Shown here piece by piece: positions 55,701-58,700 of a DNA stretch of 64,000 nt. Position 1 is the stretch's first letter. Every line of letters starts with the position of its first letter. The position numbers are program-made. Location: assembly GCF_055900595.2 (NCBI RefSeq), contig NZ_CM148325.1; one strand, given 5' to 3'.

Positions 55701-58700
55701 GATGCAGATGTTTCACTTTTTATTTCTCTTTCAGGTGAATAGATCGTTTTTACTATTTTACCCCGCACAAATCTTCGTTAAAATCAGATTATAGTGTAGG
55801 AATAATTCGTTTTTTACGATCCATTGAAGGATTTGCGTCATCAGTGATGAGATGAGTTTTTGACGGCTGTAAGCGCTCACGAGTGACCCTAAGCCCTGAT
55901 AATCATAGCTTAAGGTGAGGATTTCTGAGGGATTAATTAGGAAAAGTAATAATAAAATCGCACTGTGCTATAGCTGTTTATTCCAGAGATGCTTGAAAAT
56001 ATCTAATGTGGAGACAACATTGGCAGGCGACATTCGGTTTAATGAGGATAGAAAGGGATGAGACTCCAGGAAGTTGATAAAACGAGTCGCGCTTGCTAAC
56101 GTCGAATACCGCATTTCATTTGCTTTCTTGTTTCCTGTAAGGTTACAAACAGCCATTGAATAATCACGGGCGGAAAATGCACGCCAGACATTATTTCTCA
56201 CGCCACCACTCAAAAACAACCGCGGCGGCGTATCATAATGAGTCGTTTTCTCGCCGCGTTCTTTCACAAATGAAATATGGCACCGGCCTTGATGAATATG
56301 CTGTAAATTAGCCATTAGACAACCGCCTAATATAAAGCACTCGTGATCAAGGTAGTGTTGAATATTTATAGAATATGCTTCAGTCAGTACTCTAACCAGT
56401 TCAAAATGGCGATACGCCGGAAGAACAGGTTTCACCAGCATCCCCGGATCGTTTTGATGTAATATCGCCCGACCATAATCAATATCAAATAAAGTATCAC
56501 GTCGCATAGTAAGTAACTCCTTGCGTTGTACGTGATGCGCCAGTGTACCAGAAGTAATAATTTACGGATATCAGCAAGTGAAGCGCCTTGCTCAATCATC
56601 AATGCTAAATGTGTTCTTCGCGGCGTTGTATTTACATGATCCAGAGTGATAAAAGTTCCGGAACAATGATGACAATACATTCTCCTCTGCCCCTGAGCTG
56701 AATAGCCATACTTTTTCAGAGATGTGCTTCCGCAAGCTGGACATTGTGAAACCAACCCTCGCCATGAATGATTAACACGATTACGATAAATATTAAGAGA
56801 TCGTTCAGATATCACAGGAAACAAGTAACCGCATTCTCGACATAAAATATTTTTGCCTTGTGCAATATAATCCTGGCTATTCAACAACCCCAGGTTTTTG
56901 CATCCTGGTGTTTTGCAACAATCAACATTTACGTTGGTAAACATATTCACTCCCTGCGAATACCCGGATATTATCGTCATATGTCAAAGAAAAGAACCTG
57001 ATTCAATGTGTAACATTGAATCAGGCGGGCATAGCCCTAAATGGCATACATTACATTTATTATGATTATCAGGTTAGCCCCAGGTCACTGCTTCTGGTTT
57101 ATCACCTCTGGCTTTCATTAATGAATCATTATCAATATCGGCTTTATACTTTAAGAAATTACCATACATTTGTTTTTCAATGTCTGGATTTTTACCTATC
57201 TGATTAATGGTCTCAAAACGATCGGTTTTGAGGTTGTATAGGTACTTTGGCTTATTGTTACGATCGATGATCATTTTCCAGTCACCATCACGTATCGCCC
57301 ATTCGTCGGTTGGATCATCCTGGAATGGCATGTCAATTCCGAAGATTAATGGCTTTTCACGTTTTAGCGCCTTGTTCTCAAGGACAGGAACCAACGATTC
57401 GCCATCAAAAGTGCGGTCCGTCGGTAATTTGAAGTTCATCATTTTCGCCAGCGTAGGCATCCAGTCCAGACCATAAACGGGAGTATCTGAAACCATTCCC
57501 TTTGGAAGATGCTTTCCGTATTTAATAATCGCCGGAACACGGATGCCGCCTTCCCAAAGATTATCCTTGCGACCACGTAATCCATCCGTTTCCCCTGCCA
57601 AATTCAGCTCATACACTTTGCGCGCTTCACGCGTTACCGGACCGTTATCACTGGTAAAAATAACGATTGTGTTATCTTCTTCACCCATCGCTTTGATTTT
57701 ATCCAGCACTTTTCCAACCTGTGCATCCAGATAGCTGATGTTGGCATAATATTCCCCCACACCACGCCAGGGTTTATCCGCCCAGTCGCCATAAAATAAA
57801 TCAGGATGCTGTTTCTGATAGTCGCTCATATATTGTGAGTACATGTCGAGGTATTTTTTGGGCGAAGCCAGGGGACTGTGCACTTCGGTAAAAGCGACAT
57901 AAAGGAAGAAAGGCTTACTATCCTTTTTGTTATCCAACCAGTTAACGACTTCCGAACTGACATACTCACCACTCATTTTATCGGCACGAGGTGTGGGTTG
58001 CCCGTTACGCAACCAACCCGTCGGATACACCATGCCAAAACGGGGACGCTCCTTCGCATTATCCAGAGTAGCGTCGGTAACAAAACCCGCCGTATTAACC
58101 AGTGAGTAATCAAAGCCCATATCTTGTGCTTGTGGCTGATCGGTGCGATCGCCGCCTGCATTCAGATGCAGCTTACCCATCATTGCCGTGTCGTACCCTT
58201 GCGCTTTGAGTAGATTAGCAATCGTGAGTTCGTTACGCCCTAAGGCAACATCTTTGCCTGAAGGAATCCATGAGCGAATTCCAGTACGAAATGGCATCCG
58301 GCCGGTTAATAGCCCAGCGCGTGAAGGTGAACTTAAAGGGGCGGGGGCATAGTAGTCAGTAAATTTGACCCCTTCCTGGGCAAGCCTGTCGATATTAGGT
58401 GTTTTAACGATCTGATGACCATATGTTGCTAAATCGCCATAACCTAAATCATCCGCCATAATAATGACTAAATTAGGTTGTTTAGCCTCTGCGGCTAAGG
58501 CAGGACTAAAAGCATTCCCTGTGCAAACTGCAAGGCCGATCAAACTGGCCATTAACGTTTTCTGCATAATTATTCCCTGATAAAAAATTAGAAATCATAA
58601 CCAAGCATATAAATCATTTGATCGCCAAAGCCATCGTAGCCCAGCTTATTATCGAAATAACGCCACGTCACACTGGCTTTCCAGCGAGGATAGAACTTCC

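What the first reader, a model, noticed from the sequence alone, without database searches (positions are those of the whole stretch)
55968..56980. Frameshifted Cys-rich gene, possibly a decayed IS1595-like transposase
The two overlapping ORFs are consistent with one roughly 335-aa gene broken by a frameshift. The N-terminal half has four CxxC pairs, one resembling the IS1 InsA zinc ribbon; the C-terminal half has a weak DDE-like motif. It may be what remains of the mobile element that delivered the adjacent genes.
Basis: inference. Interest (0 to 1): 0.35.

Follow-up and report, generated by a model that had tools for sequence, protein, structure and literature searches.

The report
Deleted copy of a domesticated transposase gene
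The two overlapping reading frames are one conserved enterobacterial gene, derived long ago from an IS1-like transposase and now always sitting beside a sulfatase gene, which this strain has inactivated with a 268-base internal deletion; it is not the wreck of a mobile element.

Summary
The two minus-strand ORFs (55968-56507 and 56432-56980) are real and are halves of one gene. The lesion is a 268-bp out-of-frame internal deletion, with its junction at 56549|56550, not a point frameshift. The intact gene encodes 414-419 aa and starts at the ATG at 56944.

Intact orthologues exist in Escherichia, Salmonella, Klebsiella, Citrobacter, Kluyvera, Phytobacter, Kosakonia, Buttiauxella and Franconibacter. 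There is one copy per genome. It always lies directly downstream of a Ser-type sulfatase, with or without an anaerobic sulfatase maturase. In most of these loci the cluster lies between dnaJ and nhaA. dN/dS is 0.05-0.13.

Distant paralogues sit next to nucleoside or nucleotide catabolic genes, five of seven divergently transcribed. The best reading is an exapted transposase, probably a locus-specific DNA-binding regulator, that is dead in this lineage. Transposase ancestry is supported; "remnant of the element that delivered the island" is not.

The parts
55968..56944 (-). Pseudogene of the conserved 414-aa 'X' gene, annotated in RefSeq as 'IS1/IS1595 family N-terminal zinc-binding domain-containing protein' or 'cytoplasmic protein'.
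   Evidence: Alignment to the intact orthologues L001 (414 aa) and L002 (419 aa). The exact truncated ORFs are also seen in other assemblies.
56550..56944 (-). 5' segment: codons 1-131 plus two bases of codon 132. It encodes zinc ribbon 1 (C9/C10, C15, C35, C38), zinc ribbon 2 (C68, C71, C91, C94) and the first two helices of the HTH. Translation then runs out of frame for 38 codons to a stop at 56432-56434.
56549..56550 (.). Deletion junction. 268 bp present in every intact orthologue is missing here (CDS nucleotides 396-663, residues 133-221: the third HTH helix and strands beta1-beta3 of the RNase-H-like domain).
   Evidence: columns 536-803 of A1; all 226 closely matching complete E. coli genomes keep the 268 bp.
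55968..56549 (-). 3' segment: codons 222-414 in the original frame. It covers helix alpha1, strand beta4 onward, the beta-sheet insertion and the C-terminal helices of the RNase-H-like domain. The 179-aa ORF starts at the internal Met236.
56996..57026 (-). Intrinsic-terminator-like hairpin with a 14-bp stem and a U-run, directly after the sulfatase gene. It is conserved, with compensatory stem changes, across genera.
57074..58567 (-). Intact periplasmic sulfatase (497 aa) of the Ser type. The motif is S-S-P-S-R-AGLL-TG, read directly from the translation.
   Evidence: (PF00884, E 2.7e-59).
58588..59349 (-). Intact Tsx/OmpK-family outer-membrane channel (253 aa), the first gene of the cluster.
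   Evidence: (PF03502, E 5.8e-13).
59461..59476 (-). CRP-like palindrome TGCGATCTCCATCACG, 127 nt upstream of the porin start. It is conserved in position across genera (for example TGTGATTATTATCACA in Franconibacter).
   Evidence: That it binds CRP is inferred from the consensus only.
59510..59524 (-). Second conserved upstream block, CACACTTTTTGAAAC, 48 nt upstream of the CRP-like site. It is a candidate operator for a cluster-specific regulator.
   Evidence: Unique in the window, but the pattern count is not above chance, so the support is the cross-genus conservation only.

Best explanation
Region 55968-56944 (minus strand) is the inactivated copy of a conserved enterobacterial host gene, called X here. 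X was exapted from an IS1-like transposase.

The intact X protein (414-425 aa) has three parts:
- two Cys4 zinc ribbons;
- a helix-turn-helix which, together with the second ribbon, is homologous to the whole of IS1 InsA, the DNA-binding repressor module of IS1;
- a 255-aa C-terminal domain with the retroviral-integrase/DDE-transposase (RNase-H-like) fold. The two catalytic Asp positions are not conserved there, but a different set of residues is invariant (R238, H269, H286, H290, E291, W343).

X is fixed as the last gene of a cluster that runs Tsx-like porin, Ser-type sulfatase, (anaerobic sulfatase maturase), X. In most genera examined this cluster lies between dnaJ and nhaA.

The most likely function (inferred, not shown) is a sequence-specific DNA-binding regulator of that cluster. 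It would bind DNA through the InsA-like module and use the dead catalytic core for oligomerisation or effector sensing.

In this genome a 268-bp out-of-frame deletion removes residues 133-221 and splits the gene into two ORFs, so X is non-functional. The sulfatase and porin remain intact.

Step confidences: pseudogene by deletion 0.97; domesticated, non-mobile transposase derivative 0.85; regulator 0.5.
For: Deletion:
- Alignment A1 shows the 268-bp gap.
- All 226 closely matching complete E. coli genomes retain the segment.
- The exact truncated products occur in other assemblies, including a 5.49-Mb Escherichia sp. genome, so this is not a one-off sequencing error.

Host gene rather than IS:
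- There is one locus per genome in 21 species representatives, all with sulfatase-(anSME)-X in the same order and strand, and the same in Salmonella and Klebsiella.
- All 17 orthologues tested are intact, with dN/dS 0.05-0.13 in both the N- and C-terminal halves.
- An exhaustive HMMER search gave only 98 hits among 1.84 billion representatives.
- 'Plasmid' hits are mislabelled chromosomes or chromids.
- No bracketing inverted repeats were found.

Transposase ancestry:
- NF050000 scores above its cut-off.
- hhalign matches family residues 64-145 to InsA 4-88, probability 96.5%.
- The C-domain model has pLDDT 89.8 and pTM 0.89.

Loss of catalysis: no conserved acidic residue on beta1 or after beta4 in alignments A3 and A4.

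Regulator inference:
- HTH hits to sigma region 4 and LuxR-type domains.
- Seven independent distant paralogues sit next to nucleoside or nucleotide catabolic genes, and five of them are divergently transcribed from those genes.
- A conserved non-CRP block lies upstream of the cluster promoter.
- A conserved terminator after the sulfatase implies low expression of the downstream genes.
Against: - No experiment or paper was found on any member.
- In the sulfatase clusters X is co-directional and only about 25 bp after the maturase, which is more typical of an accessory factor than a regulator.
- The E. coli/Salmonella metL-metF paralogue lacks the HTH segment altogether, so HTH-mediated DNA binding cannot be universal in the family.
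- The invariant His/His/His/Glu/Arg set in the C-domain could be a new active site rather than a sensor.
- The catalytic-residue mapping rests on predicted secondary structure, not on a residue-level superposition.
- Upstream block A is supported only by conservation; its pattern count in the window is not above chance.
Confidence: 0.6

Rival explanations
1. Decayed insertion sequence. The gene would be the degenerating transposase of an IS1/IS1595-type element that brought in the porin-sulfatase island.
For: An InsA-like zinc ribbon and HTH and an integrase-like fold. RefSeq sometimes names members 'IS1 family transposase'. The window copy is broken.
Against: - It is single-copy and syntenic in at least nine genera.
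- dN/dS is about 0.1 and all other orthologues are intact.
- No terminal inverted repeats were found. The 12-nt flanking match in the window is part of a conserved post-sulfatase spacer that is also present where the maturase intervenes.
- The expected catalytic Asp positions are not conserved anywhere in the family.
- The cluster lies between dnaJ and nhaA in most loci, including distant genera.
Confidence: 0.03
2. Sulfatase-maturation or export accessory factor. X would be a cytoplasmic Cys-rich zinc protein that works with the radical-SAM maturase or holds the unfolded sulfatase before export, and would not be a DNA-binding regulator.
For: - X is invariably adjacent to the sulfatase and on the same strand, about 25 bp after the maturase where that gene is present.
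- The sulfatase is of the Ser type and needs post-translational maturation (sequence motif).
- X lies downstream of a conserved attenuating terminator together with the maturase.
Against: - X is retained in Escherichia, Klebsiella oxytoca, K. spallanzanii, Phytobacter massiliensis and Kluyvera intermedia, which lack the adjacent maturase.
- Paralogues sit next to deo/nup/5'-nucleotidase genes with no sulfatase nearby.
- The N-terminal module is homologous to a known DNA-binding repressor domain.
Confidence: 0.12
3. Enzyme with a rebuilt active site. The RNase-H-like domain would have replaced D-D-E with the invariant His/His/His/Glu/Arg set and would still cut or modify nucleic acid or a nucleotide-like substrate.
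For: - R238, H269, H286, H290, W343 and N411 are invariant in A4, and E291 is at least 90% conserved there. R238 and H269 are invariant across the 35-member alignment A3, which goes down to about 18% identity.
- The family is repeatedly associated with nucleotide and nucleoside metabolism genes.
- One subfamily has dispensed with the HTH.
Against: No similarity to any characterised enzyme family. Conserved polar clusters are equally expected for an effector pocket or an oligomer interface. The coordinates of the model could not be inspected to see whether these residues cluster.
Confidence: 0.12
4. Functional split gene or programmed frameshift. The two ORFs in the window would be expressed as two working polypeptides, or be rejoined by recoding as in IS1 insA/insB.
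For: The ORFs overlap by 76 nt, superficially like insA/insB. The real IS1 in the same window shows that arrangement.
Against: - The overlap is created by a 268-bp deletion that is absent from all other orthologues, which are single ORFs.
- 89 residues, including the third HTH helix and three core beta-strands, are missing.
- The downstream ORF starts at an internal Met inside the domain.
Confidence: 0.02

Closest known systems
IS1 InsA / InsAB' transposase
   Same: The second zinc ribbon plus the HTH align to essentially all of InsA (hhalign 96.5%, E 8e-10; NF033558 model positions 1-87). They are followed by an RNase-H-like core. InsA is itself a DNA-binding repressor of IS1 (established knowledge).
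   Different: X has an extra N-terminal zinc ribbon. Its C-domain is 255 aa against about 140 aa and includes a four-stranded beta insertion. It has no sequence match to InsB. The expected catalytic Asp positions are not conserved. It is a single ORF without a frameshift site, has no inverted repeats, and is single-copy and syntenic.
IS1595 family and Zn-ribbon IS256/IS1249-type transposases
   Different: The Pfam IS1595 ribbon scores below its cut-off, and no DDE_Tnp_IS1595 or IS1249 core match was found.
Eukaryotic transposase-derived transcription factors (FHY3/FAR1 from Mutator-like elements; SETMAR from Hsmar1)
   Same: The transposase DNA-binding module is retained, transposition is lost, and the gene becomes fixed and selected as a host gene (concept as in PMC13306707 and PMC8327481, found).
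   Different: X is bacterial, operon-embedded and derived from the IS1 lineage. A regulatory role has not been demonstrated.
NrdR (zinc ribbon plus nucleotide-sensing ATP-cone repressor)
   Same: A working analogy only, from general knowledge: a bacterial regulator whose DNA binding relies on a Cys4 ribbon joined to a ligand-sensing domain. It is relevant because one X subfamily lacks the HTH.
   Different: No homology. NrdR has no RNase-H-like domain.
AtsB / anaerobic sulfatase-maturing enzymes (radical SAM / SPASM)
   Same: Cys-rich, and encoded next to Ser-type sulfatases. In Salmonella, Klebsiella and most other genera the true maturase sits between the sulfatase and X.
   Different: X has no CxxxCxxC motif and no PF04055 or PF13186 hit. 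Its cysteines form zinc ribbons.

Membership tests
IS1 family transposase | N-terminal zinc ribbon plus HTH (InsA module) | tested here: met
   NF050000 31.8 bits against a cut-off of 28. hhalign 96.5% over InsA residues 4-88.
IS1 family transposase | InsB-type DDE catalytic domain with conserved D, D, E | tested here: not met
   NF033558 scores 28.7 bits against a cut-off of 100 and covers only the N-terminal part. There is no hit for the C-domain alone and hhalign stops at residue 145. No conserved acidic residue on beta1 or after beta4.
IS1 family transposase | Terminal inverted repeats bracketing the gene | tested here: not met
   Only chance-level short repeats were found. The 12-nt pair in the window is part of a conserved sulfatase-terminator spacer.
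IS1 family transposase | Multiple or mobile copies (different sites, plasmids) | tested here: not met
   One locus per genome in 21 species, with the same neighbours throughout. Median one place per E. coli genome. No genuine plasmid or phage copies.
IS1595 family transposase | Pfam Zn_ribbon_IS1595 (PF12760) above the gathering score | tested here: not met
   15.0 bits (window ORF) and 9.9 bits (intact protein) against a cut-off of 25.4.
IS1595 family transposase | DDE_Tnp_IS1595 catalytic domain | tested here: not met
   No hit at E<=10 for ten family members or C-domains.
Retroviral-integrase / DDE-transposase structural superfamily (RNase-H-like) | beta1-beta2-beta3-alpha1-beta4-alpha2-beta5 core fold | tested here: met
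Retroviral-integrase / DDE-transposase structural superfamily (RNase-H-like) | Intact catalytic carboxylate triad | tested here: inconclusive
   By secondary-structure register, D1 and D2 are absent and only E291 is conserved.
Anaerobic sulfatase-maturing enzyme (radical SAM) | CxxxCxxC cluster and PF04055/PF13186 domains | tested here: not met
   No such hits or motif. The true maturase is a separate neighbouring gene in other genera.
Domesticated (exapted) transposase genes | Single-copy orthologues at a syntenic site under purifying selection | tested here: met
Domesticated (exapted) transposase genes | Demonstrated host function (DNA binding or regulation) | not testable with these tools
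   Only gene-context inference is available and no literature was found.

The most novel reading that the evidence does not exclude
X and its paralogues would be an undescribed family of bacterial transcription factors exapted from an IS1-like transposase. The InsA ribbon-HTH would bind an operator, possibly a descendant of the old IS end. The catalytically dead integrase-fold core, with its invariant His/Glu/Arg pocket, would sense a small molecule. The family would control periplasmic scavenging modules: sulfatase and porin in Enterobacteriaceae, and 5'-nucleotidase and deo/nup genes in Escherichia, Salmonella, Proteus, Vibrio and Photobacterium.
Probability: 0.4. Interest if true: 0.6.

Novelty: new variant of a known kind. 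Interest (0 to 1): 0.4.

Why it matters
For this window the result is mostly a clean-up. The 'frameshifted transposase' is a lineage-specific deletion in a host gene, and the adjacent sulfatase cluster was not delivered by it.

The gene family behind it is more interesting. DDE-transposase domestication into stable host genes is well documented in eukaryotes, but I know of few bacterial cases and the literature searches here turned up none.

This family is currently annotated inconsistently ('IS1 family transposase', 'cytoplasmic protein', 'lactate dehydrogenase', 'hypothetical') and has no experimental data in the literature searched. If it is the regulator of the dnaJ-nhaA sulfatase cluster, strains with the deletion would differ from relatives in sulfatase expression. 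That could matter for use of sulfated host glycans in the gut.

Annotation pipelines that count it as a transposase also inflate mobile-element counts in roughly a quarter of E. coli genomes (1,274 of 5,426).

Tried and rejected
- Pfam and NCBIfam scans of the whole proteins and of the isolated C-domains gave no DDE, radical-SAM or other family for the C-terminal 260 aa.
- Sequence searches of the PDB gave only generic zinc-finger hits.
- Foldseek against the PDB with the full-length model was not significant (best E 0.013, ISCth4). The afdb50 library was unavailable.
- Searches for inverted repeats at the gene and island edges found nothing consistent. A perfect 12-nt pair flanking the gene in the window looked promising. 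It was rejected because one arm belongs to a spacer conserved after the sulfatase stop in genera where the maturase intervenes, and the pair is imperfect in other E. coli.
- I looked for a link to bona fide multicopy transposases through the most distant hit, P0155. It has only three rare relatives.
- Locus retrieval with the 35-member alignment A3 failed because no stretch was conserved enough. The 25-member alignment A2 was used instead.
- Literature searches by Salmonella locus tags, by locus, and by concept found nothing on this gene. The equation with Salmonella STM0037 is my recollection of LT2 numbering and was not verified.
- The upstream block A pattern is unique in the window, but a single match is what chance predicts.
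Full report
**What is in the window.** On the minus strand there are two overlapping ORFs, 56432-56980 (182 aa) and 55968-56507 (179 aa). They lie between nhaA (54550-55716) and an intact sulfatase (57074-58567). A Tsx/OmpK-family porin follows (58588-59349), then hokC/mokC and dnaJ. The window is Escherichia. The 1.5-kb region around the finding matches 1,274 of 5,426 complete E. coli genomes over at least 80% of its length. In each of those listed, the match spans about 1,766-1,769 nt of the subject for 1,501 nt of query.

**The lesion.** In those genomes the locus holds a single gene of 414 aa (strain AR_0077, WP_022645156, named 'IS1/IS1595 family N-terminal zinc-binding domain-containing protein') or 419 aa (strain AZ184, 'hypothetical protein'). 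A three-way DNA alignment shows one 268-nt gap in the window sequence and otherwise near-identity to AR_0077.
- Counting from the orthologous start codon, the deletion removes CDS nucleotides 396-663.
- In window coordinates the junction lies between 56550 and 56549.
- Residues 1-132 are kept. The frame then shifts, giving a 38-residue nonsense tail.
- Codons 222-414 survive out of frame, and the 179-aa ORF begins at the internal Met236.
- The real start is the ATG at 56944 (MFTNVNV, preceded by AGGGAG), as in all 17 orthologues examined, not the upstream ATG at 56980.

None of the 226 complete E. coli genomes that match the junction region closely has the deletion; every match listed is in two pieces spanning 529 nt, and a one-piece match would have ranked first. 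The exact 179-aa product is nevertheless on record from 384 contigs, including a 5.49-Mb 'Escherichia sp. KS167_9B' genome. The exact frameshifted N-terminal products are on record from Logan contigs. The deletion is therefore a real allele carried by a lineage. Outside the deletion the window copy differs from AR_0077 at only eight positions, so the event looks recent.

**What the intact gene is.** Homologues of 54-97% identity and 414-426 aa occur in Escherichia, Salmonella, Klebsiella, Citrobacter and Kluyvera. Homologues of 36-43% identity occur in Buttiauxella and Scandinavium. An exhaustive HMMER scan of 1.84 billion representative proteins found only 98 hits, so this is a small family.
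- Pfam finds nothing above threshold.
- NCBIfam's IS1/IS1595 zinc-domain model passes its cut-off at residues 68-99. The IS1 transposase model matches only its first 87 positions.
- A profile of 35 family members aligns residues 64-145 to residues 4-88 of IS1 InsAB' with 96.5% probability. The InsAB' sequence was taken from the genuine IS1 present in this window at 49623-50320. This match covers the InsA zinc ribbon plus HTH and nothing of InsB.
- The first 40 residues form an additional Cys4 ribbon.
- The C-terminal 260 residues match no family in Pfam or NCBIfam in any of about ten members tested, and no PDB sequence.

**Catalytic residues.** By secondary-structure register:
- beta1 is residues 160-173, beta4 is 258-260 and beta5 is 281-288;
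- a four-stranded beta insertion spans 311-357, followed by terminal helices.

In alignments reaching about 18% identity, no acidic residue is conserved on beta1. The residue after beta4 varies (K/R/D/E/Q/M/Y) and is followed by an invariant Pro. What is conserved instead is Y211, R238, P262, H269, F270, H286, H290, E291, W343 and N411. I therefore infer loss of DDE chemistry. I could not superimpose coordinates to prove it.

**Mobile element or host gene.** A scan of one genome per species (100,044 species) returned 21 loci, all Enterobacteriaceae and one per genome. In those and five earlier loci, X directly follows the sulfatase on the same strand. A radical-SAM/SPASM maturase lies between them in most genera and is absent in others:
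- present in Salmonella, most Citrobacter, Klebsiella quasipneumoniae, Kosakonia, Phytobacter diazotrophicus and P. ursingii, Buttiauxella, Franconibacter and Atlantibacter-like genomes;
- absent in the four Escherichia species, K. oxytoca, K. spallanzanii, P. massiliensis and Kluyvera intermedia.

In most loci the cluster sits between dnaJ and nhaA. All orthologues are intact. Pairwise dN/dS is 0.05-0.13 in both halves for all pairs with unsaturated dS except one; that pair (dS 0.155) gives 0.25. No inverted repeats bracket the gene. A perfect 12-nt pair in the window (55897-55908 and 57061-57072) is coincidental: the arm next to the sulfatase is part of a spacer conserved in genera where the maturase intervenes. 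tblastn against plasmids and phages returned only mislabelled chromosomes, chromids and contaminating fragments. These results exclude a decaying IS. They also argue that the cluster is ancestral at this locus and was lost from most E. coli, rather than delivered by this gene.

**What it probably does.** Relatives of 30-33% identity are again next to a sulfatase and maturase at other chromosomal sites. Relatives of 20-28% identity sit next to nucleoside or nucleotide catabolism genes:

| Paralogue | Organism | Neighbouring genes | Arrangement |
|---|---|---|---|
| P0087 | not identified | deoC-deoA-deoB-deoD-add | divergent |
| P0094 | not identified | nucleoside permease-PNP-deoB | divergent |
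| P0101 | not identified | nupC-deoD | divergent |
| P0175 | Proteus | UshA-like 5'-nucleotidase | divergent |
| P0111 | Vibrio | UshA-like 5'-nucleotidase | same direction |
| P0162 | Photobacterium | purine/uridine phosphorylase | same direction |
| 376-aa paralogue | E. coli, Salmonella | 5'-nucleotidase, in a two-gene insert between metL and metF | divergent |

A match covering at least 80% of the E. coli metL-metF paralogue region occurs in 1,701 of 5,426 genomes.

An 'enzyme plus divergent gene with a DNA-binding module' pair is the classic signature of a local regulator. InsA itself is a repressor that binds the IS1 ends (established knowledge).

Upstream of the porin there is a CRP-like palindrome. 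A second block lies 48 nt further upstream wherever both were located. The CRP-like site recurs in nearly every genus examined, block A in about half of the loci. A structurally conserved intrinsic terminator follows the sulfatase gene, so the maturase and X would be expressed at low level.

Against a simple regulator model:
- X is co-directional and tightly spaced after the maturase;
- the metL-metF paralogue has no HTH;
- the invariant His/Glu/Arg set could be catalytic.

I put the regulator reading at about 0.5, and an accessory factor and a rebuilt enzyme at about 0.12 each.

**Consequence in this genome.** The truncated product keeps both ribbons but loses the third HTH helix and the first three core strands. 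It is almost certainly inactive. The Ser-type sulfatase (SSPSR motif) and the porin are intact, and there is no adjacent maturase, as in all Escherichia. Whether the cluster is silent or derepressed here cannot be told from sequence.

**Comparison with the known, and novelty.** The gene shares its DNA-binding module with IS1 InsA and its core fold with DDE transposases. It fails every test for being an IS1 or IS1595 element: catalytic domain model, triad, inverted repeats and copy number. It behaves like a domesticated transposase, comparable in concept to FHY3/FAR1 or SETMAR in eukaryotes (PMC13306707 and PMC8327481, found). No paper in the searchable library describes it. The finding as stated is ordinary, a pseudogene. 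The family behind it is an uncharacterised and probably exapted transposase lineage, which earns moderate interest.

Noticed in passing
window 49594-50320, with flanks 48973-53547: A genuine IS1 (insA 49623-49898, insB 49817-50320) is inserted in a fimbrial operon. The chaperone and usher of that operon are broken into at least five ORF fragments (50322-52913). The finding's gene is therefore not the only pseudogene in this stretch.
   Followed up: partly
L001 6269-7513 versus L002 6252-7511 (E. coli AR_0077 and AZ184): E. coli carries two deeply diverged alleles of X: 85% aa identity and dS about 1.0, while the neighbouring sulfatase is 97-98% identical. About 226 genomes have the AR_0077/window type and about 1,050 the other type. 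The other type has the C-terminal tail seen in E. whittamii. This suggests old recombination or balancing selection.
   Followed up: partly
window 56996-57073 (minus strand); equivalent spacer in L002, L003, L005, L017, L021, L023-L030: Directly after the sulfatase stop there is a bipartite hairpin: GGGCnnnGCCC, then a 12-14-bp stem with compensatory substitutions between genera, then a U-run. It is a conserved intrinsic terminator or attenuator ahead of the maturase and X genes.
   Followed up: partly
L042 5102-6232 (E. coli 118UI); L040 6986-8110 (Salmonella Infantis): A distant paralogue of X (about 375 aa, 23-26% identity) lacks the HTH segment. It forms a two-gene insert with a divergently transcribed 5'-nucleotidase between metL and metF. 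The region is found over at least 80% of its length in 1,701 of 5,426 E. coli genomes.
   Followed up: partly
window 57074-58567, and the 129-bp spacer 56945-57073: The sulfatase is of the Ser type (SSPSR), which normally needs an anaerobic maturase. All Escherichia loci lack the adjacent radical-SAM maturase that Salmonella, Klebsiella, Citrobacter and Kosakonia have at this position.
   Followed up: partly
L003 404-2122, 2168-3730 and 9376-11091 (Salmonella): In Salmonella and some Citrobacter the same locus also carries two aryl-sulfotransferase genes and a UshA-like 5'-nucleotidase next to an inverted Tsx-like porin. This 5'-nucleotidase association echoes that of the distant X paralogues.
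   Followed up: no
window 46000-64000: No complete RefSeq E. coli genome listed matches this 18 kb at more than about 98% identity. The exact truncated ORF is recorded from 'Escherichia sp. KS167_9B'. The window may come from a cryptic Escherichia clade or another lineage outside that collection.
   Followed up: partly
window 47257-48729: A 490-aa ORF has no NCBIfam hit. Related genomes annotate a type III effector (espX1 / pentapeptide-repeat protein) in this stretch.
   Followed up: no
PLSDB records NZ_CP134663.1, NZ_CP141089.1, NZ_CP019203.1: Several 'plasmid' records that matched X or its paralogue are chromosomes or chromosome fragments: 4.9 Mb in size, or carrying katG-metF-metL-metB-metJ. 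They are mislabelled in the plasmid collection.
   Followed up: partly
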